A DNA stretch of 64,000 nt from an archaeon (lineage in GTDB: Archaea > Aenigmatarchaeota > Aenigmatarchaeia > PWEA01 > JAGHBM01): the NCBI GenBank assembly GCA_020355185.1, contig CP070662.1, positions 350,357 to 414,356 on the forward strand, written 5' to 3'. Position 1 is the first letter of the stretch, and each line of letters begins with the position of its first letter. This document shows, piece by piece, positions 12,728-56,841 of the stretch. The position numbers and the translations under genes were made by a program. A model generated the notes under the pieces. It was not told the origin of the DNA. It made no database searches and saw only the letters and a list, made by a program, of their open reading frames with translations.

Positions 12728-13738
12728 ATGATTGACGTGGATGGCTCCTATCTGGAAGGCGGCGGCCAGATTCTCAGAACTTCACTTGCCCTGTCCGCAG
12801 TCACCGGCAATCCGTGCAGAATTTTCAATATCAGGAAAGGCAGGCCCAAACCCGGCCTGAAGCCGCAGCATCAAAAGGCCGTAGAGACCGTTGCCCGCAT
12901 TTGCAACGCCCAAGTGAAGGGCAACAGAATAGGTTCTGTGAAAGTTGAATTCATTCCCGGAAGTATAACGGGCGGCAAGTTTGACGTGGATATAGGCACG
13001 GCCGGTTCCATTACTCTCCTTCTCCATGCTTTGATACCCCCCCTTCTCCACGCAAACCAGGACTCGGAAATAAATTTAACCGGCGGCACGAATGTCCTCT
13101 GGAGTCCCACCACGGATTTCTTCCGTCACGTATTCTGCAGCTTCATAGACAGGATGGGGGTAAACATCCGCATGGACGTAAGAAAGCACGGTTTTTATCC
13201 CAGGGGCGGCGGGAAGGTCAGACTTAGAATACAACCCAACACCAAATTAAAGACCTTAAGTCTGACCAGAAGAGGGAGAATGGAGAGGATAGATATATGG
13301 TCGATATCCTCCAAGGACCTCAAGGAAAAAAGAGTGGCTGAGAGACAGCTTGAAGCCTTCAGGGAGGTTCTCAGGGTAAAGGGTCACGAGCACTTGGTAT
13401 ATGTGGACGCACTTTCCACAGGAACCTCAGTTCACGCCCATGCCCATTACAGCAATACGAAGCTTGGCGCCGATTTTCTGGGTGAGAGGGGCAAACCGGC
13501 CGAAAAAATAGGAAGGGAATGTGCCCTGCTTCTAAAGGGGCAGATGGACAGCGGGGCCTGCCTGGACAAATGGATGGCCGACCAGATTCTTCCTTACATG
13601 GCCCTGGCCGGAGGAGACAGGATTTATGTGGCAGAGGTAACGGACCACTGCAGGTCCAACATGTGGGTCATTGAAAAGTTTCTGCCCGTGAAATTCACCA
13701 CAGAAGAAAACATAATATCCTGCAAGAAAATAAAATAA
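12728..13738 (+). CDS. rtcA: RNA 3'-terminal phosphate cyclase
   Basis: GSYLEGGGQILRTSLALSAVTG, NIRKGRPKPGLKPQH, and catalytic His context SVHAHAHY. Lies 3 nt after the beta-CASP stop. Confidence 0.9.
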   Translation: MIDVDGSYLEGGGQILRTSLALSAVTGNPCRIFNIRKGRPKPGLKPQHQKAVETVARICNAQVKGNRIGSVKVEFIPGSITGGKFDVDIGTAGSITLLLHALIPPLLHANQDSEINLTGGTNVLWSPTTDFFRHVFCSFIDRMGVNIRMDVRKHGFYPRGGGKVRLRIQPNTKLKTLSLTRRGRMERIDIWSISSKDLKEKRVAERQLEAFREVLRVKGHEHLVYVDALSTGTSVHAHAHYSNTKLGADFLGERGKPAEKIGRECALLLKGQMDSGACLDKWMADQILPYMALAGGDRIYVAEVTDHCRSNMWVIEKFLPVKFTTEENIISCKKIK

Positions 13739-22037: not shown

Positions 22038-22283
22038 GCTGGGGTGGCCGAGCGGTTTAAGGGCACAATTGCACCCATAAACGCGCAAAATGCCCGACCA
22101 GAGGCGCTAGCCTGCTAAGCTAGTGGGGCATGTCCCCGCGAGGGTTCAAAAACAAAACCTTTCTTAGAAAGAAAGTTTTGTATTTTGCGACAAAGTCGCA
22201 ATACTTGGAACTTCAGTTCCAAGATTCAAAGAATTGCAATTCCTTCGGATTTGCCTTTCGTGAGAGTCCCTCCCCCAGCGCCA
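22038..22283 (+). tRNA. tRNA-Ser(GCU), class II, two putative introns, CCA encoded
   Basis: Acceptor GCUGGGG (22038-44) / CCCCAGC (22273-79). D arm GCC-GAGCGGUUUAAG-GGC. Anticodon arm CUAGC-CUGCUAA-GCUAG with anticodon at 22114-16. Long variable arm GGGG-CAUGU-CCCC. T stem GAGGG (22140-44) / CCCUC (22268-72). Interruptions: ~22065-22105 (41 nt, D-stem/pos 26 region; boundary ambiguous because GGC is repeated) and 22151-22266 (116 nt, T loop UUCAAA|U, pos 59/60). Confidence 0.8.
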
Positions 22284-22340: not shown

Positions 22341-22481
22341 GGGCTGGTAGTCTAGTGGTTATAGACCGACACGTTTTCGTGTCTCGATCAAGACGCTGCC
22401 CTTACAAGGCAGAGGTCGGGAGTTCGACAGACTGACGTGCATTTCATGCGCGTCTTTGCGACGTTCTCCCCCGGCCCACCA
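22341..22481 (+). tRNA. tRNA-Val(UAC), two putative introns, CCA encoded
   Basis: Acceptor GGGCUGG / CCGGCCC. D arm GUCU-AGUGGUUAU-AGAC. Anticodon arm CUGCC-CUUACAA-GGCAG with anticodon at 22403-05. Variable AGGUC. T stem GGGAG / CUCCC. Interruptions: ~22367-22394 (28 nt after the D stem; AGAC repeated at both ends) and ~22428-22463 (36 nt in the T loop). Both fold into hairpins. Confidence 0.85.
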
Positions 22482-22483
22482 TC

Positions 22484-23119
22484 TTAAAACTCTCTAATAG
22501 TTAAGAAATTTCGAATTTTGTTAGACTTCCTTTCTAAAATAAGGTTCGGTAAAACATATTTTTTAATAAATTCCGCATTTTTAGAAGAAATATAAAATTC
22601 CAGTTCATACCAAGTTCCATATATTTTTCGGTTACCAATTTTACTAACTCTACTTCTTTTTGTTATTAAAGTTGAGCATTTTAAACGTTCTTTTATGGAA
22701 ATTGACAAATCTTTTGGAAATTTACCACTTGATATACGAATGGTACATTGGGGGTATTTGGGTCTTTTTATCCTCACGTCTCCGTCACCATCTATAATTC
22801 CTGCAAGATAAGAACCAAATAGCTTATCATTCTCACAAAAAATTTTAGGTGGCATTGGAGGGTCTGAAAAATATATTTTATTTTTCTCAAACATTGGAAT
22901 AAGTTTAGTTATTCCTATTTTACAGGACCAAACATCTTTTTTATTTCTCTTGAAAATACTAGATTTACTATTGAAAATCTCTTTGGAGATAGTCTGAAAT
23001 CGTTTAATTAGAATGAAATCTATAGATTCAATTTCAATTAAAAATGAGCTTTTATTTCTTTTCATCCATCCATCTGCTTGGGATAGACCAGTCCAATACG
23101 CCAATTTTTTCAATTTCAT
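22484..23119 (-). CDS. Free-standing double-motif LAGLIDADG homing-endonuclease-like protein (likely mobile)
   Basis: 211 aa. Motifs YWTGLSQADGWM and LAGIIDGDGDV about 105 aa apart. Very AT-rich. The stop codon lies 2 nt from the 3' CCA of tRNA-Val. Confidence 0.8.
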   Translation of the reverse strand: MKLKKLAYWTGLSQADGWMKRNKSSFLIEIESIDFILIKRFQTISKEIFNSKSSIFKRNKKDVWSCKIGITKLIPMFEKNKIYFSDPPMPPKIFCENDKLFGSYLAGIIDGDGDVRIKRPKYPQCTIRISSGKFPKDLSISIKERLKCSTLITKRSRVSKIGNRKIYGTWYELEFYISSKNAEFIKKYVLPNLILERKSNKIRNFLTIREF

Positions 23120-23198: not shown

Positions 23199-23208
23199 AA
23201 ATATAAAG
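23199..23208 (+). promoter_or_regulatory. TATA-box-like element upstream of tRNA-Glu
   Basis: AAATATAAAG 22-31 nt upstream of the tRNA 5' end. Confidence 0.4.
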
Positions 23209-23229: not shown

Positions 23230-23423
23230 GCTCCCGTAGTCTAGCCCGGCCAAGGATGTCGATGCCGGAAATGGCAACATAGGCCTTTCGATTTACCTCG
23301 AAAGATTTGAAAACTCCTTCGGAGTTTTGTGAAAGAAGATAGCCGAAGACCCGGGAAGTTTTGGATTTTTTCCATAATTCGGGAATTCAAATTTTGGGAA
23401 TGAGATTCCCGGCGGGAGCACCA
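23230..23423 (+). tRNA. tRNA-Glu(UUC), four putative interruptions, CCA encoded
   Basis: Acceptor GCUCCCG (23230-36) / CGGGAGC (23413-19). D arm GUCU-AGCCCGGCCAA-GGAU. Anticodon stem UC+GGC (23259-60, 23282-84) pairs with GCCGA (23342-46). Loop CUUUCGA with anticodon at 23287-89. Variable AGAC. T stem CCGGG (23351-55) / CCCGG (23408-12). T loop UUCAAA+U. The remaining 116 nt fall in four blocks: 23261-81, 23292-341, 23356-85, 23392-406. Confidence 0.75.
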
Positions 23424-23476
23424 CTACTTTTAACTTTTTTAAACTCTCAAACTCAAGAAATAGTTAAGGTGATAAC

Positions 23477-23851: not shown

Positions 23852-23932
23852 TGGTCTAAAGACTGAGCAAAGGATAATTATTTCCGGGTGGCAAAAGCAT
23901 ATTATTTAAAAGTTAACCGGCTAATATTGGTT

Positions 23933-24818
23933 ATGCAAATTGTAGGCAAAACCAACTTGCCTTTACCTGTTTTTAAGAAGGGTAAGGTAAGGGACACGTA
24001 TGAAGTCGATAGCAATCTTCTTATCATAACCACGGACCGCATTTCAGCCTTTGATTACGTTCTTTCCAATCTCATACCATACAAGGGTGTGTGTATAAAC
24101 AATATATCCAATTTCTGGTCCGACTATCTTGGGGACGTGGTTCCGAATCACTTGATTCACACGGATATCGGCGATTTTCCGCAGGAATTGCAAAAATACG
24201 AGATTTTGGGGGGGGAGAAGCGTAATAGCAAGGAAAGCGAAAGTCTTCCCTATAGAGTGCATAGTTCGTGGTTACATCTTTGGTTCGGCATGGAAATCCT
24301 ACAAAAAAGACCAGACCGTATGCGGCATAAAGTTTCCCCCGGGCATGAAAGAGTCGGAAAAGTTTGACGAACCTCTTTTCACCCCATCCACAAAAGCACC
24401 GGAGGGAGAGCATGACGAGAATATTTCCTTTGACAGGATGAAAGGGATAATAGGCCCGGATTACGCTGAAAAGCTCAGGGATCTGACCCTGGAACTTTAC
24501 GAGAAGGCCACAAAATTTGCCGAAAAGAAAGGTATTATAATCGCTGATACCAAGTTCGAGTTCGGAAAAATTGGTGACCAGGTTGTAATGGTTGACGAGG
24601 TTCTGACTCCGGATTCTTCAAGATTCTGGCCCCTCGACAAATACAAACCGGGTCACTCACAGCCAAGCTTCGACAAGCAATACGTAAGGGACTACCTTAC
24701 AGGCAAGGGATGGGACAAGGAGTCCGACCCGCCAGAACTTCCGACATACGTGATTTTGGAAACAACAAACAAGTACAAGGAAGTCCACGAGAGAATTACG
24801 GGAAGGAAACTGGACTGA
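23933..24818 (+). pseudogene. purC: SAICAR synthetase (PurC) split by a 1-nt frameshift in a G8 run
   Basis: Track ORFs 23888..24367 and 24345..24818. N-part: KGKVRDTYEVD..LLIITTDRISAFD. After GGGGGGGG at 24208-24215 the next frame reads RSVIARKAKVFPIECIVRGYIFGSAWKSY...LFTPSTKA...IIIADTKFEFG. Removing one G restores ...YEILGGRSVIARK... Confidence 0.85.
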
Positions 24819-26329: not shown

Positions 26330-26351
26330 ATTGAATAAAGCGGGGGTACCC

Positions 26352-26385
26352 AAGAAAGCTTTTTAGAAAAAAGCTTTAGCAAAAA
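26352..26385 (+). repeat. 34-nt direct repeat, copy 1 (inside tRNA-Leu D-loop interruption)
   Basis: AAGAAAGCTTTTTAGAAAAAAGCTTTAGCAAAAA is identical to 26437-26470 and contains its own inverted repeat AAAGCTTTTT/AAAAAGCTTT. Confidence 0.85.
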
Positions 26386-26436
26386 ACTAAAAGGCTTTGG
26401 GAATGGCCAAACCTACGGGCTATAGGGGCAGGACTT

Positions 26437-26470
26437 AAGAAAGCTTTTTAGAAAAAAGCTTTAGCAAAAA
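26437..26470 (+). repeat. 34-nt direct repeat, copy 2 (inside tRNA-Leu anticodon-loop interruption)
   Basis: Identical to 26352-26385. In both copies the first AAG is the last exon triplet (CCCAAG| and CUUAAG|). Confidence 0.85.
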
Positions 26471-26601
26471 CTTAATCTGTGAGAAATCCTGTGAACGTAG
26501 GTTCTTCGTGAGTTCGAACCGGCCGACGCGCACGAGGTGTGCGTCCGTGCGAAGCACGCAAGGCGGAAGACTGCCGAGAAGATCTCATCCCCCGCACCAA
26601 A

Positions 26602-36808: not shown

Positions 36809-39800
36809 TTACCAGGAGGCGTTTGCCATTATAGTTACAGTGCCCGCGTACGACCCCGTATACACTGGCGGGGTGTCCAGCCAGAAGTAAACCGAATGGG
36901 TTATTCCTGAATCGGCAGGCTCAATTATAGCTTCATAAGTATGGTTCATCCTGGCGGAAACACCGTAACCGGCGCATGCCCTGCACCAGCTTATGTTGGA
37001 AACTTCTATGGGCGTGGAAGTCCCCGCCATGTCCGTGCCTTTTATGTAAAGCCCCTGTGCATCATTCGAGTTCTTGTCCAGTCCGATCTGATAAGGATTG
37101 CCCGGCGCCGCTATCCCCTGAATATCCGGGTCTCTGTCTCCCCAGTCAATTTCGTCAGTGGATACATTCAGCACCAGGACCAAACCTATCCTTATCAGAG
37201 AGTTGGTTGTGTCGTTAGACGGGTTATAAAAGATAACATCTATGTTATAGTATTCATCAAGAGAGCCCGTGGAATTAACCTTCCATATAAAAGTGTAATT
37301 TTCGTCTTGGTCCAAGTTACAACTCTGGGGGTTTAGGTCAAATGTGTAAAATGGAACATCTCCCGGTGTTGTTGAAACATCTGTGTTGGGCTCAGTTCCA
37401 CTTGAATTATATCTTACTTTTCCATAAAGAGTCCCGCATCTCGATTCCTTGCATATTACAGTTGCATTTACGGTAAAGTTTTTGTATCGCGGGGTTATTG
37501 TGTTGTCCGGCGGTTCATTTAAAAACACAATCAATTTTCCTTCGGGCAGAGTTATGTTAACAGTTGTATTGTCTTCGTAACTCTCAGAAGCGTTATAATA
37601 CAAGGTGGAATTATCGGTAATGTTACACTTCGGATAGTAAACCCCATCTTCATACCAAGTTGTATCCCAGCTTCCGATTGCATGGCCCGTAGAGTTTGTA
37701 AAGTTGCTACCAAGACTTACACTATGAGTCGAGTTTTCCACATAAAAATTAACCAAATAGTCCTGTATACCCACACTGGTGTTTGAGTTTTCCACCAGAC
37801 AAGTTAAAGGAACAATTTCACCCTGAGTATAATTATCTCCGCTATCCGGCGAAATCCAGTCTACCTTGCTCCATCCCCGGACAAAGATTGTAATGCTATC
37901 CTCTCCGGAATCATAATATTGTTTTGTAACGCTTATCGTTACAAGTTCCGGTCCTACAGAGTGGCCTGACGGAACAATCCAGGTTGTATTTTCGCCAGAA
38001 GCTATATAATCTGTTGTATTTGTCCAGTTGGCCTGGTCCGGCGTGACAGCAATGTCATTTTCATCCTTGGTCGTTGAGTTCAGCCATGTCAAACTCTCAA
38101 CCTGATAAATTGATTCGTTCGCAGGATAACCCATACTTATATTTAATATACCAATGAGAGTAACAGACCCGGAGGCGTCATCGTCTGCGGCAGTGGTGTT
38201 ATAGTATGCGGACGGTTTGTTGTTTATGAGGCACCTCAAAGTTTTTGGTCCCACCGTCTCGGTTTGCGCATCCCAGTTCACTGTGGCGTAACCGGTCGAG
38301 TTCGTGTTATCCGAGTTTATGTAATCCCAGTCATCATCGTAAAAATCAACCTGATAATTTTCTATTCCGTACAAGCCGTCCTTATCAATAACCCTGCACG
38401 TGAGTGGAACCGTACCTCTGTAAGTGCTTCCCGAAGGTCCAGTCCATTCCACTTTACTTCTGCCCCAGACATCAAAAGTTTTGTATCCCAAGGAATCGTT
38501 CCAGTTCGGCGGAACAACTTGGTCGGATGCATTAATTTTCGTCACATGCACACCAACAATCCAAGAAGAGTTTGTATTAATGGTGTGATTAGTCCAGTTA
38601 TCGCCACCGATAGTTTCTGTCGCGTATCCTACTATTTGGGATGACGTGTCGTTAAACATGGTGTAAGAGTTTCCGATAGACTCGTTCCACTGTGCATAAA
38701 TCAGTAAGGCGTCGCCCTTCCAGACAACCGTATCATTTATTCCGTAAGTAATGGCAAAGGGTGGGGTTATGTCTTCCCCGGGCTCTTTGGTGGTTAAAGT
38801 CTCTGTTTTGTTGTTGTTCGAAGAGGCATTATACATGATGGCAGCATAATCGGTGATGTTGCAAACCAGCGTATCGGTTCCGTTACTGTAATCTATGTAT
38901 TTCCAGACAGCCCAGCCACTCGAGTTTGTTTGATTTGCACCCAAAATATTCGTGGAATTGTAGAAGCTGATGTTATAACCGGAAATAGCGCTTCCATTCA
39001 AATCAGTAACCCTACAACTAAACAAAGTCGAACTCCCTTCATAAATTATGTTCGGGTTCAGGTCACTGTCACTGACCTCGGACCAACCCCAGACTTCCGT
39101 TGTGTTTATCTGGGTCATGTTTTCGTTGCTCGATGAGTCGTTTGCATAAATTCTCCATCCGAGTATACCCGGGGTCATGCTCATTGGAATGGTTAATTCA
39201 AATTCGGCCCAATTTTCTATAACAATGGCATCTGCCAGCGAACTGTTTTGCCAAGTTCCTGTTTCGTTTGTTGACAGCCAGGCATAATCTAATGCCTCGT
39301 TATCATCCCAATAGGACTTATAGAGAATAGCGTCTCCCTTATGTACTACAGAAACGTTCTGGCTTACTTGCGAGTATTTGGGAGGTTCCGTCTCTATCGT
39401 TCTTAATGTTTTTATTTCGTAGTAGTCTGATGTGACGTTGTAATAAAGCGTGGAATTTTCAGTAATGTTACATGTAATGTTTTCATACCCCAAACTGTTA
39501 TCAACAAAGGTAAAACGTGCCCAGCCTGTCTGGTTTGTATTATTTGTGCCCAACTGATTTGTCGAGTTGTAGAAAACAACATTGTAACCACCAACGCCGC
39601 TTGTATTGTCAGAGACCACCCTACAATACACTGTTAAAGGATTTCCCTGGACAACAGTTGACGGGTCAAGATAGCTGCTGGGGATGCTTGACCAGCCCCA
39701 AACCTCAAAATTAAGGTGGTATAAGGTATTATTCCAGTTACCATTCAAGTCACTTGAATAAATTTTTAGGGAGTGAACCCCCAGCAACCAAGATACATTC

Positions 39801-42800
39801 GTATAAAGAGTGCGATTAGTCCAGTTACCCGTGTATGGGGGCGAAATGGTGTGGTTAAACAAGCTGAAGGCAGTATCGTTGTATTCGGTTTTTGAGTCAT
39901 TGATTTCTTCATTCCATCTTGCGTATGCGGCCAGAGAGTCCCCTCTGTTTACAATATAATCTGTCAAACCGTATATCTCATTGTAAAGCTTGGGTGGTAA
40001 TCCTTCCGTAGGTATTAAGTTATACGTGGAATAGTCTTCTTCAGTCCAAAAAGTATCGTTTATTAAAAAGTGAACGAGTTTTTTTCCAGAACCCGTGGTG
40101 ATATTGAATATGTAATAGAAAGTTACATTATTGTTAACCTGCACCAACATATTTCCTTGGGAGGTATTCCATTCAATTTTTCCGGGGGACCAGTTACCTC
40201 CAGTATAGTTTAACGTCGAGTTTTCGTACCATATATCATGCGTATGGTTTATATTCCAACTTGAGTCCAGATTTTCATGGAATATTACATCAGAAGATGT
40301 TATTGTCCAGTTTGACTCGCTGGTGTCATTAACCCAGGCAACTATTTCTGCCCTATAAACATTACCTGTGTATAAGTCAAATGTAGTATTCAAACCAGAG
40401 CCAACGGGATCTGATGTATTAGTATGTTTATCAGAGGCATCAGTTACATCAAATATCCTTATTTCTTGAATTTGAACCAAAGATAACGGCTCTGTTATAG
40501 AGAATTGATAGTAACCAAGTATATCCGAGTCGTCGTCATTTTTTAAAATGTTTCCGCTCGGGTCTGCCAGATAACCCAAAACCCTGTAAGTTCCTGCAGG
40601 CTCCAAGTCAGTATTCCATGCGCTCGGATTCCATAAAGTGTCTAGTGCCAGAGAAGCGCCTGCAGAAATGTTGTGGGATTCGTTGTTTAAAACGATTCCG
40701 CCGGAGACATCTTGCCAGCCGCCCCCGACATATCTCTGGACTTTCATAGTCAGATATCCTTTAATATCCTTATTTCCGGTGTTCTTAATTGCGGACCTGA
40801 TATAAGCAATTTTTAATTCCGGTTGGTTTGTTCCCTGGCTTCCATCAATTTCAAAGTAGGCGTTTTCACCGCTTTCATTGATTAAATATGCCACCAAATC
40901 TTTATCGGCCATGTATGATTCGTTAACACTCACCAGTACATCTATAGTTTTATTTCCGGCTGTGGATGCGCTGAAATTCCCTATGGGATTTGATTCGGAA
41001 CATTCACTCGGTTGGCCGTCATCATAAATCGTGTTTACTGGAGTGGAGGAGTTATAGGTCCCGTTTGTATGATAAACCAAGCCTGTAGCCGATGCAGAGG
41101 CTGTAACTGAAACAGTTAAATTCGCAGATAGAATTTTTGCTCCGTCCGGAATTTCACTCAGGTTGAATTTCAGATAATACCGCTGCTTTACTGTAGTGTA
41201 AGTAATATTCAATGCGGCATAATCTATAGCAAGTAAGCTGTCGTCGCCCAGATAAGTTATCTCATATCTGGCTTTAATTTCATTGGAAGAATCGTTAACA
41301 AAGTCCGACATTTTTCCGTATGCGTCCCAGCTGCCATTTACTTCATAACCCCAGTCACTTGTGCTCAAATCCCCTATATCAACCCAAGACCCGGATGAAT
41401 AATTGTAAACTTCAACGTCTTGGAAACCCACCGGCACACCCTCCGGGGAGTCCCCGTCACAGGATGGTCCTCCTCCATTGGAGCCATCATGACAGTATAC
41501 CAGTTCGAAGTTCAGTCTGGTTATGTGATTTTCATCTATCCCCAGAGAAGTTATGTTAAAGGTCAATTCACCGTAAGCGTTGGGGCTTCCGCCCTGTGAA
41601 CCGTACCACCAGTAGGAGCCGTCATCTGATTGCGTGTCTGTATAGTCCCCGCCGCTGGCATCATAAATTCCTGTTATTTGGTCATCATCCGCCAAATCCA
41701 ACGAGGTGTCGTTCTTGTATCCGATTCCAGCCGTGCCCGGATCATCTATTCTGGTTCCGTTGAACATGGCAACCACATCATAACTAGCGTTTTTCGTTGT
41801 TTCTTGGTCAATGTAACTTGTTAAATTAACATACTCCAAGGGACCATAAGAATCATCAATTGTTTTGACATTCAGAGTGGCATTGGAGCTTATGTTGAAA
41901 TAGTAAACAGAACTTTGGTTTGTTTTTCCAGCAGTGTCCTGCGCCCAAACATAATAGGAGTATTGCCCGTTTTTCCAAGTACCTGAAAAGTTGTATTCAT
42001 ATACGTCTTGCGTGTAGTTGGTCATGTCATACGCAGTATAACTTTCTTCAGGAGGTTTTACATATACCCTTACGATATTTACACCATCCCAGTCAGTTAC
42101 ATTTGCCGAGATGGTTACGTTTTGTCCATAACCCTGCGAATCGGGTGAATTTACAACATCCTTTATGAAAGGTTTGTCGTGAACAGTTATGTTTGTCGTG
42201 TTCCAAGATGGATTCGTATAAATAGAACTTTTACCGTCATAAGAAACATTAATTTGATGGTTTCCCAAAGTTTCACTTGATGAAAGCTGATAATCTACTG
42301 TTGCCAGGCCGCCGGAATCAGTAAGGTCCCAACCAATAAAGTAACCAGTGGTTGTATCGTTAAATGTTATGTTTTGATTTGGTATTTCGGTACCGTTATC
42401 ATATTTCAAATAGGCACTTACTCTAACGGTTTCCCCCCCAACCGGATCGGAATTGTTAACTGAAGGGTTTATAGTTGTATTTGCGTAGACAGTTATTGTA
42501 ACAATATCCCAGTCTGTATAACCTTCCTGGCACGAAGTATCAAGTCTAACTTCTTGCGGACCCAGCTGGGAACTTATTACCAAACCCGCTGTTATGTTGT
42601 TCCAAAAAATGTTTCCAGGGGCAAGAGTTTCATTATTTTCGTTTAAATTACCAGAGGAGTTGGTCCAACCGCTTGGTAACGTCCAGTTAAGCCATAAATC
42701 ATTTACAGTTATCACTATTGTATTATTCACATAACCTCTTAAGTCGCCGGATCCGCCCCTGGTTACGATAGTGGGATATTCGCTAATTTCAGTAGACAGT

Positions 42801-45800
42801 CCGGGTATTCTTAACATTAATATTTTATCCTCCTGCTCCCCCCAGCTATGGTATTCCCCTCCCGGATTTGTATAATTAATAGTTGCGTTGATATGGTAAT
42901 CTCCGGCCGGTGTTGAGTTAGTTGATATATTAAAGGTGGCATTTTTCCAGCCGCCTCCGGTTATAGTACCAAGATTACAGTAGTTCTGGTTTGTTTGCCC
43001 TGCCAGAGTACAGTTACATGTAAAACCAAGGCCCTGAGGACAGTTTACCGTGACATTAACACTTGTTAAATTTTTAGACCAGGGATTCGCTACAGTAAAG
43101 TTATACAGAGACGACTTGTTCTGGTATATTTTTTCTGGGGTCATATTTGAAGAAAAGCCATCGGGCACATGGTGAATTGTAAAGTTAATAGAACTGTTTT
43201 GTGTCGTATTACCGCTGTCAGAACCCATAGTTACATTCCAGAAGAAATTATAATTTCCTGAGGTTGCATCCAAAGGAATAGGATAACCATACGTTTGGTT
43301 ATCAAATTTTTTCTCGCAGGCTTCGTCTGCATCGAGGTTCCCGCAATATTGGGTTTCATCGGGTCCCCAATCAACCATACTACTCAAATGGTCAAGAACA
43401 TTCAAGGTTATGCTTGCATTGACTGAAGTAGTGTTTCTGTTGGTTACGGTAACATTTATCCAGGCAATATTATCTCCTGTTTCATATTCTTCCACATCGA
43501 AGTTGTATTCATTTTCATGTGTCAAATTAGTTAACTCCATGTAAGCAGATATTATTGTGAAATTATAGGTTGCGACAAGGTCTGAACCAGAATAATCCTT
43601 TAAGGCATTGCCATTTAAATCAACTAAAGCAGCATAAATCCTGTAAGTTCCCGCAGGCTCAAGGGTAGTGTTCCAGCCCCCTCCCGCTTCCCACAGCGTG
43701 TCTAAATATTTCTTTTGGCCGGCATCAGTGCTTTGTATTCCATCTGACTGGTCCATTACTGGGAATCCGGTGTTTTCCCAACCAGAGCCGGTCCAGTGCT
43801 GGACTCTCATAATTATGTAGTACTTCATATCCACAGAACCCGTATTAACAACCTTTGATATTCTGTCGTAAGATTCATTTGAACCCAAGGTAACTGATAC
43901 AGGGTTTTCAACCTTCTTCCATTCGTTTCTTACAGGCACGTAATTACTACCATTCAGGGTTACGTAGTATGCTTCATAGGTATAAATCCCGGATATGGTG
44001 CTATCCTGCATGTTGAAAGGCACCCATGCCATGCCCCAAAGTCCGCCAGTTCCACCCAAATTGGTTATAGCCCAGTTGGTGTTGTTTGGGGTGTAGCTTG
44101 AATTTAACAAGAAATACCCGAAAGTTTGACCATAGCTTCCATCTAGGTGCATGACACCCCAGGTCTCATTCCAGTCTGTGTGTTGTTGTGCAAGTTCGGT
44201 GCCAAGCAGAGGTTCTGTAACTGCTCCGCTGGGGGTAATGTAACTAAAGTTGTCTTGAACCGGGTTTATATCCCACGATGGCATTCTTTCATGCGGCCAG
44301 TCGGGCCAGGAAGTTTCTGTAAAAGATGTGGAGAAATTGGAGGTATAATTTGCCTCAATCCTTGAAATCTCGTAATCCGGTGTGTAATAAATCCTCCACA
44401 CATAGGTGTACTCTGACCCGCTTATTACACCAGGATAGGCAGGATTTGCAACGCCGGGCGCCTTCATCGTTATTTTATGCATCAAAGGTCCAACGACGTC
44501 GAAAACAACAGATGAGGCGTTACCCGCATCGGAATAGTTTGTTGCATCAGAATGCTGTGTTATAAAGCCGCAGTCCGCCTCACCCGAGAAAGTGCACCCC
44601 CCAAAGACATCTCCAGCGTTACTCCAGAAGTGGAACATGCCAGGGGACAAATCCCAGTCATCATAGGCTATGATAGATTGCGCCGAATACAAGTCAAAAT
44701 AAACCAAGGGCTGATTGCTTCCCGAATAAGTTCCATTTATCTGAATCGTATCACCGGTTCCATAAGAAGTGCCAATTGAAAATCCGGTTCCCCTGTCAAC
44801 CACTGACGGGTCGTTTAAACCGGTATAGCTTGGCTTGCTTGCCTGTGAATTGTTGTAGTAAATGTAATACGTGGAGGTTGAACCTTCGCTTACATTAGAT
44901 AAAAAGACCACATTGGCCCCGACACAATAACCAGATGAATATTTTTCATCATAAACCTGCGAAGAGATTTCATCAATTTTTCCGGAAGTTACCCTTATCT
45001 CTTTTGTACAGTTGACAACTTTACCCTGGGCAAATGTAACGTAAGTGTCTATTGGCCAGAAAGTTCTGTCACCAACTCCGGGTTCTGTTACGTTCACCTG
45101 TTTTCTTGATTCCCATGAGGAATTCCACCATTCATCCGATTTGTAGTAAACTGTTATGTTTACATATTCGTTGGGACCGTAAGAATCGTTTTCAGTGGAA
45201 ACATCAATAGTGGCGTTTACAGTAACATTAAAAGTGTTAACATCGGAAAAGTACCCGGCACCGCTACTATCATTGGCCCAGATTCTGTAGCTATATCCAC
45301 TCCACTGCCAGGTGTCAGAAAAATTGTATTGCCATGTATCTGCAGAAATATTAACCATGGTGAAATTATACGAGGCGCTATCAGGATACGTAATTTCTAC
45401 AAGAGCGGTATCAACATCGCCTCCCGTTATGTCACCGGATATGGTCACATTATAACCATAACCCACCGGATCAGGAGTGTCTGTTATATCAGAGAAAACA
45501 AAAAGTGTTAGTTCAAAGTAATCGACGTTTTCTATATAACTGCTATCATCGTTCTGCAAGACATTCCCTTCATCATCTGTAAGAGCAGCGTAAACCCTGT
45601 ACCATCCCGTCTCTTGACCATATGTACTCCATGGTTCAGCGTTCCAAATAGAACCCACATCCAGATATTCGCCAGCAGAGATGTTTCTTAAAGTTGACGT
45701 ATTGGTGTCATCGATTATTATTTCAACGACATTCCAAGAACCCGAATTGTTTGTTTGAATTTCCATCAACAAATAACCGGAAATATCTGTCGGGCCATTA

Positions 45801-48800
45801 TTGAATAAAGAGGATCCGTTATATGCTGTAACCCAGATATCAGTCCAGTTTATTTCATCGATATTGGAGGAGTCGTTATAATCAAAATTCACCCCTCTTA
45901 TTCTCAAGTCCCTGTTTCCAGCAGTTTCCCAAGCACTCAAGACAGAAGAGTTGGTTGTGGAAAGACTAAAATTACCGGTTGAGTTTACACTGAAGTTTCC
46001 TATTTCTATCCATCCGCCACCATCTGTTGTTGCCATTTCCAGTTGTAAGTCGGGGTTGCCATTTCCGTTATTAGAAGAACCCGAGTTGTTGTAAAAAGAA
46101 ACATTAACAGTCACCGTTAATTTTGTCAAATCCTCCATATTTCCTGACAAAACATCATTGTAAGTCGTGTAGGATGTGTTTGCTTCTCTATCCACATCCT
46201 CTAAGGCAGAGTAAGATATGTTTATATCATCAAACCCCCTGCCATCATTTGTGCACGGAAAATTATCATGCTGCATGAATTTTACCGCGAAAGATCCGTT
46301 AACCTCGGAACAAAAGTCCGGGTCAGCTGAAATGTTATGTTCATGGTATCCCCAACTTCCCTCGTCTGTTGTGAGCGCTTCAAGTCTGTACCAATAACTT
46401 CCGTTACAGGTGAAGAACACACCGTCACCGCAGGCACTGTTGCCTGAACAGCCTGACTGGTAGTCTCCGTAATGGTCTCCTAATTGATGGGATTCTTCTC
46501 CTGTTTCTATATGATAAAAGCTAAGAATTATGTTACTTGCTCCTGAGAAATCATAAGTAGTCTTAATTACATTAGTCTCGTACTGGTTACTAGAAGTGAC
46601 ATCCATCCAAAGATAATAAAGTCCTGAATTTGGCGAAGTACAGGCAGATAACTGGACATCTGTTGAGTTATAAGTTCCCGGATTTCCTATCACAGTCCAA
46701 TTGCCCGTAATACCACCGCTTTCAAAACCATCAAAAAATTCTGCAGGAAAAGTTCCCGGTGTTTGAGCCTTTTTCTGTATTTCCCCAGACTCCCGGTCAT
46801 CAGAAGTTAGGTCTTTGCCGAGTGTCAAGTTTACGTATTGGTTCAATCCGTACGAATCTTCAATTGCAAATACCGTTATCAATGCGCTGCCATTTACATA
46901 GAAATATGGGTCGTATTCTTGGATGTTCCCGTAAGTATCGTTAGCCCATATCGAATAATAATAGCTTCCGGTTTGCCAGGGTGTATAGTTATATTCATAG
47001 ATATCTTGCGTATAGTTGGTCATTTCTCGCCATTCCAAGGTGTCGTCGGGTAGCGTTATATTCACAAAAACCCTATCCACGTTTGAGTTATCAGTTACAT
47101 TTGCCGAGATGGTAACGATTCTTCCGAGCCCGCTTGTTTCAGGACTCGCATCAACATCAGCTATAACCGGTTTGGTTGCATCCGCGCTCATTATCATTAA
47201 ATGACTTTCGCTCGAGTTCGTATAATTCTGATTCCCAGCAAAATAACCTGTTACGTTGAACATATCATCAGGACTAAAACTACTTGTGTTTGTAAAGTTT
47301 GTCAGGGGAGTAAATCCTGGGGAGTTGGAAACGTTTTCTGTTATCCCAGTAAAGTTTGTCCAGATTTCAACATCAACACCTGAAATATTCAAGGCTGCTG
47401 TTATGTTGGCGATTTGTCCCACTTCATAAACCACGTCTCCGTCCGTTCCGTTCAAGAGCAAATTAATTTCCGTGGGAGCTTTCTGGACGGTGAAAGACTG
47501 TATCGCCATGGTATCGTTCCAGTCATCTAACGTATCATTTGCCCAATAGTTCCATCCGACCGTTTTTCCTCCAGGAAGTTCTGAACTCGGGATACTGCAG
47601 TAATAAATGTTGCTTTGATTATCGCAAATTGGGTCAGTTGTCGTGTAGTTAGTCCATGTCCCGGTGTAGTTGCTCCTGAAAATAACCGTTCCCAAGCCGA
47701 CAGCATCGTTCCACGTGGAATTGCACTGCACGTCATTCCCGTAAACCGGGTTTCCCGCGGGGTTCTGTTGCACATCTGAATAGTTAGGCGGCGTGGTATC
47801 AACGCTAAAGTATCTGGTATCGGAATTGTTCATGTTACCTTTTGTGTCATTGCAGTAGAAAACCACGTAATTTGAACCGTCTGATATGCCTGAAAGATTG
47901 AGGTAAAAGTGCATGGTTGAATCATTGCTCATCGTCTGGTTTGCACCATCGTTCAGGGAAACGCCACACCAGTCACCGGTTTCGTCCAGAGTAACATTTG
48001 ACCATACCCAGTTCTGCTGATAAACTTGGTTCAGGGGGGACTCTATGGTGATTACCGGAGGATTATCATATGTTACATTCATGTAAGGCCTCAGGGAAGT
48101 GTCAACACCATATTCCTTTGAATACAAACGGTCTTCAGCGGAACTTGCAGTTTCCGGTGTCCTAATAACTATGGAAACGTTATTGTCTCCGTTTTCATAT
48201 TCCGACCTTACCGTATTGGTAACGTTCCAGCAGACCCAACCAACCGCGGTAGTTGCCTGCGTATCTTCTGATGTGAGATTACACTCAGCAGAATTATCGA
48301 ACCCAGGATCACATGGCTGATCGTTCCAAATTATTCCGCCTTCAGTCCATGTGTGGTTGTAAACATGATGCGCAGAAGCCTGGGCCGTGGCACCATTTTG
48401 ATACAAGTAAAGACAAAGCAGTGATTCGCTAATACCAACCTTGTTTGGTATCGAACTAATATTGAACTTGATGTAAGTTCTGTAGGCCCTGTCAGTTCTG
48501 TCCCTTATTCTGACATTGCTGTCATCACCATAATTCGTGGTTGCAGAGTTGCTTCTTACATGAGTGTCATCAAGGTTCTCCGAATCAGGAGCCTGCAGCT
48601 GCACTGTCGGGTCCAGAACGATATCAGAACCGGTGAAGTTGCTTATCCTTATATCTGCCGTATTTTCGTCTATCTGCTTGGTTTCAACCAAGATACCGGA
48701 GGTTGTGCAGTGGTCTTCCTCGTCGCACGTTAGGTTGTACAGGTCGGAGAAATCTATTTCCAATTCTCCGATTAGCAGGGTATCGTTATCCAGAACAGTT

Positions 48801-49666: not shown

Positions 49667-50114
49667 TACATACGAAATATTCCAGGCTCGGTGAATACTC
49701 TCCCCTTTGCGTGCTTACGGCGAGCTGCCACTTTCCTACCTTCACCGCCCTTACCGAAACACCATCGTTCCCATTTTTGTATTCAAGTTCCCCTTCCAGA
49801 TGTTCCAATCCCTTTGGCAGTTCCAGTCTAACGCCTTCTATTTCCGGATTAATTTTCCATTCGATAACAGACTCTTCACCAATGGACATGATAAACCCAT
49901 TTCCCGTTTTTTCAACATGCCTTATATCAAATACAGCGTCTACCTCCGGTTCCATCAAAATAATTCCCAAAGCCGCCCCCATAATTCCAACTGCAATGAT
50001 TATTATCATGATTTGGTATGGTCGGGACGATTTAGGTTGGGTATTAGATCTGGGGGGAACCAGAAACGACTCTACAAACTCCCCGACCACATGTGTATAA
50101 ACCATTTTTACCAT
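49626..50114 (-). CDS. Single-pass membrane protein (162 aa) wedged between the two giant genes
   Basis: TM helix YQIMIIIIAVGIMGAALGIILM followed by a ~110-aa beta-rich ectodomain. Overlaps the 1771-aa stop by 7 nt and the annotated 4285-aa start by 41 nt. Confidence 0.6.
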   Translation of the reverse strand: MVKMVYTHVVGEFVESFLVPPRSNTQPKSSRPYQIMIIIIAVGIMGAALGIILMEPEVDAVFDIRHVEKTGNGFIMSIGEESVIEWKINPEIEGVRLELPKGLEHLEGELEYKNGNDGVSVRAVKVGKWQLAVSTQRGEYSPSLEYFVCIGTTDEDARKYCD

Positions 50115-53100
50115 GTTGCATTCGCCATTATAGTCATCGTGCCCACGTAATTCTGGGCCATTTTACCGTAAGGAACATTCAACCAGTAGTAGGTTGTCTT
50201 GTTCTGCCCCGATGGAACATTCTGGTCCATCAGAGAGTAGGAATATTCCATAGCTGAACCGGTGGAGGGATTGTTCTCAAAACTCCAGGAGATGTTGCCG
50301 GGTCCTATATCGTAGTTGGCCCAGGCTTCCCCCACCATATCAGTTGCCTTTATCCAAAGATAATCCAGGTCATTGCTGTTGGGATCCACGGAGATGTTGT
50401 AGTATTCGTCGGAGTTGTTCAGGGCGGGCCGTTCTGCCTCTCCAGGATCCAGTACCCCAAAACTTACGGTGTCAAAAGTCAGGCTCATGACCAGAACTTT
50501 GCCTATCTCCACTGTGCTGTTTTCGGTGTGGTTGCTTATCTGTGACGTTTCAAAGTAGGCCCCAATTTCGTAAAAATCTCCAAGAGTTCCGGTGGAATTA
50601 ACGCTCCACACCATTGTGGCGTTTTCATCCTGTCCTAAATTTTGCTGTTGCGGGTTGCTATCAAAGGTGTAGAACGGCGTTCCACTGTTTTCAGGTATAT
50701 CCGTATCCGGCTCATTTCCACTTGAGTTGTATCGGACATAGCCCTTAACAAGTCCGCAATTTCCCTTTAAACATATAACAGTAGCATTTATGGTGAAATT
50801 CCTGTACTGAGGAACTATGGTGTTATCCGGAGGAGTATTCAGTGTTACGTTCAGCAGGGCTTTTTGTCCGCCTCCGTATGCGTCAAATTCCGTAACGTTG
50901 AACCAGATGTGTGTAGAATTTTCCTGCATGTTGTAGTCTGAGGTTTCGTTAACCTCCCAAGAAGAACAGTTTGATGTCTTATAGTCCCAATTCGTGCAGT
51001 GAGCAATGTGGGAGACGTTAACTCCGGCCTTCGGTATACAGAGTGTCGCGTAGTCATAATTAACATTGAGTTCTTTCTGTGCATAAACAGGTGTAACGTT
51101 GCTTATTCCCTGAGGAAAAGTTCCCGTGTAGGTTTCCACTATCTGGGAAGTTATGTTCAGATTATCGGATATATTCACATTCTTCAGGTAAGTCTCCTGG
51201 AATCCAGAGGAAAGTTCGGTCCTGAGAGATATGTCATAAAGTTCGTATGCATCCACGTCAGTGGAAATGTTTCCCTGCCCTTCTGTAATAAGACTTCCGG
51301 TAGAATTATATAACCTTATATTGGTATTGCTGCTGGGACCGAGAGTAGTATTGACTGTTATGTTAAGTTCCGCCAAAACTTCATAAGAAAGTTCATCGGA
51401 AACCACATTGTTGTTGCGGGTATCATTTGCATAAATTTTCCATGCAATTACTTTGCCCAAACAGGAATCAGGCACGGTTCTGGTTACGTTGGACCAGGCG
51501 CCTGTCGGTTCTCCGGCCCAAGCCATCGAGCTTTCATTCTGGAAGCCCGCATCGCAGCCGGCTCCTGTCGCATTCCATGATAGCTTGTAAGTGTCAAGCC
51601 CCTTATCATCGCTCCAGTAAACAGAATGTTTGATTGTCGTGCCCTTGTAAATATCAGTAACGTTTATCTGTTCATCCGAAGGCGCGGGCGGATAATCCAA
51701 AATACCCAAAGGTTTTGTGACGTTTGAATCATATGTTGAATCACCCCAGTATACGTTGGCTACTCTGCCACCGGAACTCGTCACGTCCGCATACACCTTC
51801 ACCATAAGCCTCTGATTTTTGCTTATATTGAAGGAAGAGCCTGACCATATGGAAGGATATGAGTCCAAGTCAATCACGTCTGCCGTGTTGCCTGCGTTCT
51901 GGGTAACAGCTGTGCATCCGGTTCCGTCATTTTCACAGACTAGTATATCGTAATCAATATGAAATGTAATTGGTCCGCTTGTCCCTGTTCTTTGTCCCCA
52001 AAAAACAAAATCCCAGTTACCCGAGAGTATTTCCTGTGCAGGTAACTGGTTGGTTACAAACGTTGCAAGCCTATACCTTTGCACGGCGGCGCCCACGGTT
52101 GAGTTGCTGGTGCCAGAGGCAGTGTTGGTGCCGTTTAACCTGTAGAAGTTTCCGCCTGTAAGCACGGTGGTGTCATTTCTGAAGTAAAGGTTTTCAATCG
52201 GTTCACTGACCTCCATTATCCAGCTCTCCTCATCGGTTGTGTAATTTTCATCTCCTGTCCAGTTGGCTTTCACCAGATATTTTCCGTAATTAATGTTGCT
52301 GGTATTCGTTGTATTTGACAGTGGGTCAGGGCCCTCGTCAATTAACTCTAAAGGTCCGCTGAAGTTTGCATAGAGATAAAGATATTTCCCGGATACATTA
52401 AGTGTTGTCTTCAATTCCACAATTTGACCTTTAATATATTTTTTATTCCCTCTAGTCCCGTTAAGCAAAAGGGTCTGTTCCGTAGGACCCTTGGTTATGT
52501 TAAGTAACCGCGTAACAGAACCGCTGGTATAGTTTTCACCCCCGCTTGTATTGTACAGGTAAGAGTAAAGGTTTACCCCCAACCGCTTTAAATCACTTAC
52601 GGGAGAACCTAGAGAGATAGGCGTATCGTTCCTGTAAAGACTGAAAGTCAGGTCCTGAATAGCATCAGACCAAGCTGTCACGTTTGATACAACAGGATAA
52701 GTCAGGTCCTGGTTCTCTTCACTGCCGTTTATGGCCAGATGCAAATGTGAAGAAGGGTCTCTCTTTCCTACAGTCAGATAAAAAGTCTGACCAGTGAAAT
52801 TGCTGGTATAGTTCACATTCCCCGTAATGTTGACCTTGTAGGCGTACCCAGAAGGCTTCGCGCCCAAGACCAGGCTTTGACCGTTCTCCCCGGTTACGTC
52901 AGCACCGTCCCTGTAAAGGTGAACTGTTCCGGAACCAGTGTAAAGTGCGGCCCCGGTGGCGTTCGTCGCCTCCTCATACACAACGCTCATGTTCTGGTTG
53001 AGAAACTCTCCCGAGGAGTTCCTGAAGTAAAGCTCCACAGGATTGCTCTGGTTCTGCTGTATTGTAACGACCGCTGTAACACCGGTTAAGTTAGCAGTCC

Positions 53101-56768: not shown

Positions 56769-56841
56769 TCTACACACCCTCCTTTTAGTTCTCCCATTCA
56801 GAAAATGGGGATGTTTGAGCTATTGATAATAAGTATGTGGT

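What the first reader, a model, noticed from the sequence alone, without database searches (positions are those of the whole stretch)
23230..23423. tRNA-Glu(UUC) gene with four interruptions, including one inside the anticodon stem and two flanking the T loop
The 194-nt span yields a perfect 75-nt cloverleaf + CCA when four blocks are removed. Block 23261-81 (21 nt) lies between stem positions ~28/29. Block 23292-341 (50 nt) follows the anticodon loop, carries an AACUCC-UUCG-GGAGUU hairpin, and has a UCGAAAG segment complementary to the anticodon loop. Block 23356-85 (30 nt) lies between the T stem and T loop at ~53/54. Block 23392-406 (15 nt) lies in the T loop at 59/60. The exon sequence closely resembles the haloarchaeal tRNA-Glu I recall (...GGCCUUUCGAGCCGA.GACCCGGGUUCAAAUCCCGG...). 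Alternative pairings in the pre-tRNA, such as CGGGAAU/AUUCCCG around the last block, are consistent with splicing helices.
Basis: partly seen in the sequence, partly recalled or inferred. Interest (0 to 1): 0.75.

Follow-up and report, generated by a model that had tools for sequence, protein, structure and literature searches.

The report
Four-intron tRNA-Glu gene in DPANN archaeon
This 194-base stretch is a real archaeal glutamate-tRNA gene cut into five pieces by four small protein-spliced introns, one more than the published maximum of three, and standard tRNA finders miss it completely.

Summary
Removing four blocks from 23230-23423 gives a 78-nt sequence that ARAGORN calls tRNA-Glu(UUC), with CCA encoded. 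It is 71/75 identical to intronless tRNA-Glu genes of DPANN archaea. [quoted passage not shown] Introns 3 (53/54) and 4 (59/60) flank a 6-nt micro-exon, UUCAAA. Intron 4 gains its outer helix, the T stem, only after intron 3 is removed, so an ordered splicing is inferred. The window comes from an 833-kb archaeal MAG contig related to Aenigmatarchaeota. Homologous DPANN tRNA-Glu genes carry introns at 29/30, 37/38 and 59/60, up to three per gene. The 53/54 intron is seen only here. A three-intron parse exists but gives a non-consensus T loop and a weaker BHB. The kind is known; the number (published maximum three) and the lineage are new. A neighbouring tRNA-Leu also has four introns. ARAGORN and Rfam detect none of the window's four tRNA genes. 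No expression data, genome-wide tRNA set or EndA gene could be examined.

The parts
23200..23208 (+). A/T-rich TATA-like box (AATATAAAG) centred about 26 nt upstream of the mature 5' end; putative archaeal promoter
   Evidence: Read directly. This is an inference from the usual -26 spacing of archaeal TATA boxes and was not tested.
23230..23261 (+). Exon 1, tRNA positions 1-29: acceptor 5' strand, D arm and the first three nucleotides of the anticodon stem
   Evidence: The D arm 19-mer is identical to 42 archaeal tRNA-Glu loci, nearly all DPANN.
23262..23282 (+). Intron 1 (21 nt) at 29/30 in the anticodon stem. Strict hBHBh': central helix AUGU/ACAU, outer helix AAGG/CCUU, inner hairpin UGCC-GGAAAU-GGCA, bulges CG|A and AG|G
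   Evidence: scores it (H4, h4, h'5). Only 3e-6 of random site pairs in the window are as good. Homologous 29/30 introns with different sequences but the same motif occur in L033 and L021.
23283..23290 (+). Exon 2, positions 30-37: the rest of the anticodon stem 5' strand and the loop C32-G37, including anticodon UUC
23291..23340 (+). Intron 2 (50 nt) at the canonical 37/38 position. BHB central helix C32UUU35/GAAG, bulges CG|A and AU|A. It contains UCGAAAG (complement of the anticodon loop), the conserved GAAAG-N-UUUGA element and an 8-bp UUCG-capped hairpin
   Evidence: scores it (4,3,3) unspliced and (4,5,3) after intron 1 is removed. One search shows GAAAG-N-UUUGA shared with the 37/38 introns of L003, L024, L025 and L030. 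One search lists I3 and I5.
23341..23355 (+). Exon 3, positions 38-53: A38, anticodon stem 3' strand, 4-nt variable loop and T stem 5' strand
23356..23385 (+). Intron 3 (30 nt) at 53/54. BHB central helix CCCG/CGGG, bulges GG|A and AA|U, inner helix AGUU/AAUU plus UGGA/UCCA, and a 2-bp outer helix
   Evidence: scores it (4,2,4); 6.6e-5 of random site pairs are as good. The placement is unambiguous. This position is not seen in any of the 43 homologous loci.
23386..23391 (+). Exon 4, a 6-nt micro-exon UUCAAA (T loop positions 54-59)
   Evidence: It completes the T loop UUCAAAU, which is identical to 35 of 38 uninterrupted homologs.
23392..23406 (+). Intron 4 (15 nt) at 59/60. BHB central helix UUCA/UGAG, bulges AA|U and AU|U. 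The outer helix is the T stem and exists only after intron 3 has been removed
   Evidence: scores it (4,0,2) unspliced and (4,5,2) after intron 3 is removed (2.6e-5 of random pairs). 59/60 introns with UGAA + 2 nt tails occur in L021 and L034.
23407..23423 (+). Exon 5, positions 60-76: U60, T stem 3' strand, acceptor 3' strand, discriminator A73 and encoded CCA
   Evidence: and (I4: GCTCCCG/CGGGAGC)
23428..23440 (+). T tracts (TTTT, TTTTTT) just downstream; putative archaeal oligo-T terminator
   Evidence: Read directly; inference

Best explanation
This is a functional, collinear tRNA-Glu(UUC) gene of a small-genome DPANN archaeon related to Aenigmatarchaeota. It is transcribed as a precursor of about 194 nt, and the archaeal tRNA splicing endonuclease (EndA) and the RNA ligase RtcB remove four BHB introns from it. 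The introns lie at 29/30, 37/38, 53/54 and 59/60. Introns 1 and 3 form self-contained hBHBh' motifs in the primary transcript and are probably removed first. Their removal completes the anticodon stem and the T stem, which serve as the outer helices for introns 2 and 4. Joining the five exons (32, 8, 15, 6 and 17 nt) gives a canonical 75-nt tRNA ending in an encoded CCA. What is shown: the sequence, the cloverleaf, the BHB geometry at all four junction pairs, its rarity by chance, and homology to intronless and intron-bearing DPANN tRNA-Glu genes. What is inferred: transcription, the enzymes, the splicing order and function in translation.
For: The spliced product is called tRNA-Glu(UUC) by ARAGORN, with G15:C48, G18G19, U33, G37, U54U55C56 and A58 in place. 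Three independent intronless tRNA-Glu queries (L004, L007, L040) recover the same four gaps at 71/75 identity over a wide range of intron penalties, and the locus scores z = 13.6 against random windows. Every junction pair has a perfect 4-bp central helix flanked by 3-nt bulges in the register the cloverleaf requires. The chance frequencies per site pair are 3e-6, 1e-5 to 6e-5, 7e-5 and 3e-5. In a BHB-guided search of 2306 candidate products, ARAGORN called only three as full-length tRNAs, and the four-intron product was the only one with the consensus D arm and T loop. Relatives carry BHB introns at the same sites with unrelated intron sequences: L033 at 29/30 and 37/38 plus a third intron in the T loop whose BHB is not strict, L021 at 29/30 and 59/60, and L034 at 59/60. 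Exon GC is 65% against 30-48% for the introns. The other three tRNA genes in the window are also intron-rich and also encode CCA. [quoted passage not shown] It also reports heavy, partly undetected tRNA gene disruption in DPANN lineages, associated with EndAs that carry the L3 insertion (PMC5829648).
Against: There are no expression or processing data. The minimum-free-energy fold of the whole precursor does not show all four BHBs at once; enforcing each costs 2.6-9.6 kcal/mol. Competing helices exist: CUUUCGA/UCGAAAG over the 5' site of intron 2, and CGGGAAU/AUUCCCG over the 3' sites of introns 3 and 4. Intron 4 has only a 2-bp inner helix, and intron 3 only a 2-bp outer helix. The 53/54 intron has no counterpart in the 43 homologous loci. 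No EndA gene was found in the window ORFs scanned, and the rest of the genome could not be read. It therefore remains unknown what type of EndA the organism has and whether it carries another tRNA-Glu(UUC) gene.
Confidence: 0.85

Rival explanations
1. The gene has three introns. The 45-nt block 23356-23400 is removed in one step, and the mature tRNA has the T loop UGAGAUU instead of UUCAAAU.
For: ARAGORN still calls the resulting 78-nt product tRNA-Glu(UUC). The block has a 4-bp central helix CCCG/UGGG because intron 4 repeats the YGGGAA motif of the intron 3 tail (D1). Spliced alignment switches to this parse once the intron-opening penalty reaches -20.
Against: The T loop would lack U55 and C56, the partners of G18 and G19. 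None of 38 uninterrupted homologous T loops resembles it: 35 are TTCAAAT and 3 are TTCGAAT. Identity to homologs drops from 71/75 to 67/75. Its BHB has no outer helix, scoring (4,0,2), against (4,2,4) and (4,5,2) for the two separate introns. It may occur as a mis-splicing by-product.
Confidence: 0.05
2. It is a decaying tRNA pseudogene or relic that has accumulated insertions and is no longer processed into a working tRNA.
For: The fragmentation is extreme. The locus has competing secondary structures and some weak flanking helices in the BHBs of introns 3 and 4. The neighbouring purC gene looks frameshifted, so the genome or assembly does contain broken genes.
Against: All 78 exon bases give a flawless cloverleaf with every conserved tertiary nucleotide. 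All four insertions sit exactly in BHB register, which random insertions would not do. Small DPANN genomes normally hold one gene per tRNA; this is general knowledge and was not tested here. Relatives keep introns at the same sites.
Confidence: 0.06
3. It is an assembly or sequencing artefact: a chimeric or mis-assembled repeat that creates false insertions in a simpler tRNA gene.
For: The source is a metagenome-assembled genome. Short direct repeats occur around introns 3 and 4 (D1, D2).
Against: The window lies on a single contig of 832,879 bp. An independently assembled relative, seen in both L033 and L043, has the same architecture for introns 1 and 2. Artefacts would not create four BHB motifs in register.
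Confidence: 0.02

Closest known systems
Multi-intron tRNA genes of Thermoproteales (Pyrobaculum, Caldivirga, Thermofilum; Sugahara et al. 2008, as cited in PMC8450103 and PMC4090602)
   Same: They are collinear tRNA genes with several short BHB introns at canonical and non-canonical positions. Closely spaced introns must be removed in order, and the genes are missed by ordinary tRNA finders.
   Different: The published maximum is three introns per gene (PMC8450103); this gene has four, including a 6-nt exon between two T-arm introns. The host is a DPANN archaeon, not a crenarchaeote. Its EndA is unknown, whereas Thermoproteales use the (alpha-beta)2 type with the Crenarchaea-specific loop.
tRNA-Glu(UUC) of Ca. 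Aenigmatarchaeota RIFCSPHIGHO2_02_FULL_36_49 (L033 = JAGVVW010000029.1; the same sequence is in L043)
   Same: The exons are nearly identical. It has introns at the same 29/30 and 37/38 positions, both with 4-bp central helices, and a further intron in the T loop whose tail also carries a GGGAA motif.
   Different: It has three introns, not four, with no 53/54 intron. Intron lengths (34, 57 and about 50 nt) and sequences are unrelated. Its T-loop intron does not fit a strict BHB, and CCA is not encoded.
Disrupted tRNA genes of ARMAN/Micrarchaeota and other DPANN with broad-specificity EndA (epsilon2 type, or alpha4 with the L3 loop; PMC3239211, PMC5829648)
   Same: These are DPANN lineages with raised numbers of non-canonical and multiple introns. 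The authors state that undetected disrupted tRNA genes probably explain incomplete tRNA sets.
   Different: Those papers do not report four-intron genes or Aenigmatarchaeota-type genomes. Here the enzyme could not be examined.
Three-intron nuclear tRNA-Ile(UAU) of the red alga Cyanidioschyzon merolae (PMC3728597)
   Same: It has introns in the D stem, at 37/38 and in the T loop, all with hBHBh' motifs. The splicing order was shown experimentally, with the outer introns removed before the 37/38 intron.
   Different: It is eukaryotic, has three introns, and is processed by different splicing machinery.
Box C/D guide RNA inside the tRNA-Trp intron of Haloferax volcanii (PMC4090602)
   Same: A long 37/38 intron carries a segment complementary to the anticodon region of its own tRNA. 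In intron 2 here, the fifth nucleotide upstream of a UUGA (D'-like) motif pairs with U34.
   Different: Intron 2 has no terminal C and D boxes and only degenerate C'/D'-like motifs. The resemblance is a lead, not a demonstrated membership.

Membership tests
Archaeal BHB (EndA-spliced) tRNA intron / multi-intron tRNA gene | Removing the insertions restores a canonical cloverleaf tRNA with the conserved nucleotides | tested here: met
   ARAGORN calls the 78-nt product tRNA-Glu(UUC). It is 71/75 identical to intronless DPANN tRNA-Glu genes.
Archaeal BHB (EndA-spliced) tRNA intron / multi-intron tRNA gene | Each pair of splice sites lies in two 3-nt bulges separated by a 4-bp helix, with flanking helices (hBHBh' or a relaxed form) | tested here: met
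   All four pairs have a perfect 4-bp central helix in the required register. The flanking helix lengths (outer/inner) are 4/5, 3/3 (5/3 after intron 1 removal), 2/4, and 0/2 (5/2 after intron 3 removal).
Archaeal BHB (EndA-spliced) tRNA intron / multi-intron tRNA gene | Related genomes carry introns at the same positions with the motif kept while the sequence diverges | tested here: met
   29/30 is shared with L033 and L021, 37/38 with at least 9 loci, and 59/60 with L021 and L034. The feature is not met for 53/54, which is unique to the window.
Archaeal BHB (EndA-spliced) tRNA intron / multi-intron tRNA gene | The genome encodes a splicing endonuclease able to cut non-canonical or relaxed BHBs, plus RtcB ligase | not testable with these tools
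   No tRNA_int_endo hit was found in the window ORFs scanned. Only RtcA cyclase is present, at 12728-13738. The rest of the 833-kb genome could not be fetched.
Archaeal BHB (EndA-spliced) tRNA intron / multi-intron tRNA gene | The precursor is transcribed and processed to mature tRNA, with excised and usually circularised introns | not testable with these tools
   No RNA data are available.
Split (trans-spliced) or circularly permuted tRNA genes | The tRNA pieces are encoded at separate loci, or the 3' half lies upstream of the 5' half | tested here: not met
   All five exons are collinear on one strand within 194 nt.
Group I / group II self-splicing introns in tRNA genes | A ribozyme core of at least about 200 nt that Rfam models can recognise | tested here: not met
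   The introns are 15-50 nt. There were no Rfam hits, even at E<=5.
Intron-borne box C/D guide RNA (tRNA-Trp type) | Boxes C (RUGAUGA) and D (CUGA), internal C'/D' boxes, and a guide of about 10-12 nt that pairs with the target so that the fifth nucleotide upstream of D/D' marks the methylated residue | tested here: inconclusive
   A 7-nt complement of the anticodon loop is followed at a fixed spacing by UUUGA. A downstream RUGA motif is shared by five DPANN 37/38 introns, and the N+5 nucleotide pairs with U34. There are no terminal C/D boxes and no Rfam C/D hit at the locus.

The most novel reading that the evidence does not exclude
This Aenigmatarchaeota-related lineage may hold the most fragmented collinear tRNA genes yet seen. 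The four tRNA genes in this window carry at least 12 introns, and two of them have four each. Its introns may not be passive. The 37/38 intron of tRNA-Glu carries a conserved element, GAAAG-N-UUUGA...RUGA, that pairs with the anticodon loop and, in this gene, also with the T loop. It could act as a built-in guide (for 2'-O-methylation of wobble U34 through a K-loop/C'D'-like motif) or as a folding chaperone that sets the splicing order. That would be a second case, after tRNA-Trp, of an intron that directs maturation of its own tRNA. The repeats between the intron 3 tail and exon 4 plus intron 4 further suggest that the 53/54 intron arose by local duplication of a pre-existing T-loop intron, which would be a simple route to intron gain.
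Probability: 0.15. Interest if true: 0.75.

Novelty: new variant of a known kind. Interest (0 to 1): 0.58.

Why it matters
The tRNAscan-SE 2.0 paper states that archaeal tRNA genes contain at most three introns (PMC8450103). This gene and the neighbouring tRNA-Leu show that the EndA/BHB system tolerates at least four, with exons as short as 6 nt. The practical consequence is larger. ARAGORN and Rfam find no tRNA at all in this 64-kb window, yet it holds four. DPANN genomes that are reported to lack tRNAs, scored as incomplete, or assumed to depend on a host for tRNAs may simply have hidden genes of this kind, as Kaneta et al. 2018 suspected (PMC5829648). The locus also offers a compact substrate for studying ordered multi-intron splicing and how tRNA introns are gained.

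Tried and rejected
1. Direct detection with ARAGORN and with Rfam, at gathering thresholds and at E<=5, found nothing.

2. The one-base-shifted, sequence-equivalent boundaries were adopted instead. The 60/61 register for intron 4 was rejected for the same reason.

3. Among BHB-guided alternative products, ARAGORN called a three-intron 'tRNA-Phe(GAA)' that removes 23252-23324. It was rejected because it deletes the D-stem 3' strand AAGGAT, which lies within the D-arm 19-mer shared by all 42 homologous loci.

4. The merged intron 3+4 parse is treated as a rival explanation.

5. Haloarchaeal affinity was rejected. The D-arm 19-mer hits are nearly all DPANN, and the best protein relatives are Aenigmatarchaeota.

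6. Orthologous loci in closer relatives could not be retrieved. purC neighbours are not syntenic, and Ldh_2 neighbours are not syntenic either. The SerRS neighbourhood is syntenic, but the 10-kb flank stops at the PRC gene just short of the tRNA cluster. The metagenome scan returned only a duplicate of L033, and the viral scan returned nothing.

7. Exact-match look-ups of window proteins found no indexed contig, so the rest of the genome, including EndA and any other tRNA-Glu copies, could not be read.

8. One exhaustive search over the homolog loci timed out and was replaced by spliced alignment with local BHB scoring.

9. The whole-precursor MFE fold does not display all four BHBs simultaneously. 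This is taken as a sign of competing folds and sequential processing, not as evidence against the introns.

Full report
**Observation**

ARAGORN finds no tRNA anywhere in the 64-kb window. Rfam finds no tRNA either, at gathering thresholds or at E<=5. After the four blocks are removed, the 78-nt product is called tRNA-Glu(UUC) by ARAGORN. It has:
- a 7-bp acceptor stem;
- a D stem GUCU/GGAU;
- an anticodon stem UCGGC/GCCGA with loop CUUUCGA;
- a 4-nt variable loop;
- a T arm CCGGG-UUCAAAU-CCCGG;
- discriminator A and an encoded CCA.

Exon GC is 65%, the introns are 30-48% and the window is 45%.

**Is it more than chance, and is the parse forced?**

I aligned independent intronless tRNA-Glu genes from other genomes to the locus with a spliced aligner. 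The queries were L004 (Aenigmatarchaeota), L007 (DHVE2) and L040 (Micrarchaeum). All three recover the same four gaps at 71/75 identity over intron-opening penalties from -5 to -14. The locus scores 106, against 16.1 +/- 6.6 (maximum 30) for 150 random windows, z = 13.6.

**BHB geometry**

I applied the geometric rule of the archaeal bulge-helix-bulge motif. The last six exon bases before the 5' site are a 4-nt helix strand plus two bulge bases. The last six intron bases are the complementary 4-nt strand plus two bulge bases. The sequence-equivalent registers one base away fit perfectly.

| Intron | Coordinates | Position | Central helix | Flanking helices |
|---|---|---|---|---|
| 1 | 23262-23282 | 29/30 | AUGU/ACAU | outer AAGG/CCUU; inner UGCC/GGCA hairpin |
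| 2 | 23291-23340 | canonical 37/38 | C32UUU35/GAAG | outer helix 3 bp, 5 bp once intron 1 is gone |
| 3 | 23356-23385 | 53/54 | CCCG/CGGG | 4-bp inner, 2-bp outer |
| 4 | 23392-23406 | 59/60 | UUCA/UGAG | 2-bp inner; no outer helix in the primary transcript; full 5-bp T stem as outer helix after intron 3 removal |

Across both strands of the window, site pairs at least this good occur at these frequencies:
- intron 1: 3e-6;
- intron 2: 6e-5 unspliced, 1e-5 after intron 1 is removed;
- intron 3: 7e-5;
- intron 4: 3e-5 after intron 3 is removed.

Four such motifs in exactly the registers demanded by the cloverleaf cannot be coincidence.

**Alternative parses**

A BHB-guided search gave 2306 candidate products. 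ARAGORN called only three as full-length tRNAs: the four-intron tRNA-Glu, a defective variant of it, and a 'tRNA-Phe' that deletes the conserved D-stem strand.

Outside that search, removing 23356-23400 as one block gives a three-intron product that ARAGORN also accepts. This happens because intron 4 repeats the YGGGAA motif of the intron 3 tail (D1). That product has T loop UGAGAUU, without U55 and C56. Of 38 uninterrupted homologous T loops, 35 are TTCAAAT and 3 are TTCGAAT. Its BHB also has no outer helix. I therefore keep four introns as the best parse and list the three-intron version as a possible by-product.

**Source and relatives**

The window's seryl-tRNA synthetase and Ldh-family proteins are 100% identical to NCBI proteins annotated 'MAG... 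[archaeon]' on a single contig of 832,879 bp. The next relatives are 70-79% identical, and where named they are Candidatus Aenigmarchaeota.

A scan of one genome per GTDB species with the D-arm 19-mer returned 42 loci. Nearly all are DPANN: Aenigmat-, Woese-, Nano-, Micr- and Altiarchaeota. The window's own genome is not among them. Many of these tRNA-Glu genes carry introns:
- L033 (Aenigmatarchaeota) has three introns, at 29/30, at 37/38 and in the T loop.
- L021 (Woesearchaeota) has two, at 29/30 and 59/60.
- L034 has one, at 59/60.
- At least nine loci have a 37/38 intron.

The intron sequences differ while the 4-bp central helix and the flanking helices are kept. For example, the inner helix of the 29/30 intron is UGCC/GGCA here and AUUGUUUUC/GGAAACAAU in L033. 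The 53/54 intron is seen only in the window.

**Mechanism**

The anatomy matches EndA/RtcB splicing of BHB introns. Introns 1 and 3 are self-contained in the primary transcript. Introns 2 and 4 gain their full outer helices, the anticodon stem and the T stem, only after introns 1 and 3 are removed. I therefore infer the order 1 and 3 first, then 2 and 4. The same dependency is described for Thermoproteales (PMC8450103), and an ordered removal was shown experimentally for a three-intron algal tRNA (PMC3728597).

The MFE fold of the full precursor (-67.2 kcal/mol) prefers competing helices: CUUUCGA/UCGAAAG and GGGAAU/AUUCCC. Enforcing each BHB costs 2.6-9.6 kcal/mol. However, it places two 3' splice sites inside a continuous duplex, so it competes with splicing and is not a splicing helix.

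A TATA-like AATATAAAG lies about 26 nt upstream, and T tracts follow the CCA. Both are inferences. No EndA gene is present among the window ORFs scanned; an RtcA cyclase lies at 12728-13738.

**Comparison with what is known**

The kind is well known. Multi-intron BHB tRNA genes occur in Thermoproteales, Thaumarchaeota, ARMAN and a red alga. The tRNAscan-SE 2.0 paper states that archaeal tRNA genes contain up to three introns. Full-text searches found no report of a four-intron archaeal tRNA and no description of Aenigmatarchaeota tRNA introns. The searchable library is incomplete, so this absence is only suggestive.

Kaneta et al. 2018 noted incomplete tRNA sets in DPANN and suspected unidentified disrupted genes. 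This window is a concrete example. All four of its tRNA genes are hidden:
- Ser(GCU), at least 2 introns;
- Val(UAC), 2 introns;
- Glu(UUC), 4 introns;
- Leu(UAA), 4 introns.

**Verdict**

This is a real and very probably functional tRNA-Glu(UUC) gene with four BHB introns, confidence about 0.85. It is a new variant of a known kind. It extends the documented maximum and contains a 6-nt exon, and it lies in a poorly studied DPANN lineage. The mechanism appears conventional. Interest is moderate to high for tRNA and archaeal specialists and for genome annotation. No expression data were available.

Noticed in passing
window 26340-26599 (+): tRNA-Leu(UAA), a class II tRNA, also has four interruptions: 26355-26403, 26411-26423, 26440-26485 and 26519-26582. 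ARAGORN calls the 88-nt product. Two of its introns, one in the D loop and one at 37/38, begin with the same ~34-nt sequence AAGAAAGCTTTTTAGAAAAAAGCTTTAGCAAAAA (26353-26386 and 26437-26470), each after an exonic AAG. This looks like intron duplication or transposition within a single gene.
   Followed up: partly
window 22038-22283 (+) and 22341-22481 (+): Two more hidden tRNA genes lie here. A class II tRNA is called Ser(GCU) after removal of 22060-22101 and a 116-nt T-loop block 22151-22266, which may be nested introns. tRNA-Val(UAC) has a 28-nt block after the D stem and a 36-nt block in the T loop; its junctions do not fit a strict BHB. Both genes encode CCA. Together with Glu and Leu, the four genes carry at least 12 introns.
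   Followed up: partly
window 23298-23310 within intron 2; L003, L024, L025 and L030 37/38 introns: A conserved element GAAAG-N-UUUGA, followed downstream by RUGA(R)A, occurs in the 37/38 introns of five DPANN tRNA-Glu(UUC) genes whose introns are otherwise dissimilar. GAAAG pairs with the anticodon loop but is not the BHB strand. With UUGA read as a D'-like box, the fifth upstream nucleotide pairs with wobble U34. In the window, AAGAUUUGAA is also complementary to UUCAAAUUUU (T loop plus the start of intron 4). The element may be a guide or a chaperone.
   Followed up: partly
window 23373-23401: An imperfect tandem repeat with 15-nt spacing, CATAATTCGGGAAT / CAAATTTTGGGAAT, links the intron 3 tail to exon 4 plus intron 4. 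In addition, AAGTTTTGG (start of intron 3) resembles AAATTTTGG (end of exon 4 plus start of intron 4). This hints that the 53/54 intron arose by local duplication of the 59/60 intron region. The repeats are too short for statistical support.
   Followed up: partly
window 22484-23119 (-): A free-standing 211-aa ORF with a LAGLIDADG_3 homing-endonuclease-like domain (E = 3.7e-7) sits between tRNA-Val and tRNA-Glu. A relative (L046) has a 344-aa ORF with a faint hit to the same family next to its Ldh_2 gene.
   Followed up: no
window 23888-24818 (+): purC (SAICAR synthetase) is split into two overlapping ORFs in different frames, 23888-24367 and 24345-24818. This could be a frameshift, a pseudogene or a sequencing error. 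A split purC (65 + 221 aa) also appears in an unrelated metagenome contig (L045).
   Followed up: no
window 36809-49666 (-) and 50108-55423 (-): Two giant ORFs of 4285 and 1771 aa are followed by a run of seven ORFs (55836-62299) with no Pfam hits. From general knowledge, giant ORFs of this kind are typical of the large surface proteins of DPANN genomes. The two giant ORFs themselves were not scanned.
   Followed up: no
window 710-21965 versus L050, L052, L054 and L057: The gene order Peptidase_M24 - Cdc48 - BacA - RadB - topoisomerase - SerRS - aCPSF - RtcA - ... - PFOR is conserved in relatives with 75-76% identical SerRS. The neighbourhoods of purC and Ldh_2, on the other side of the tRNA cluster, are not conserved. 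The tRNA cluster therefore sits at a synteny break.
   Followed up: partly
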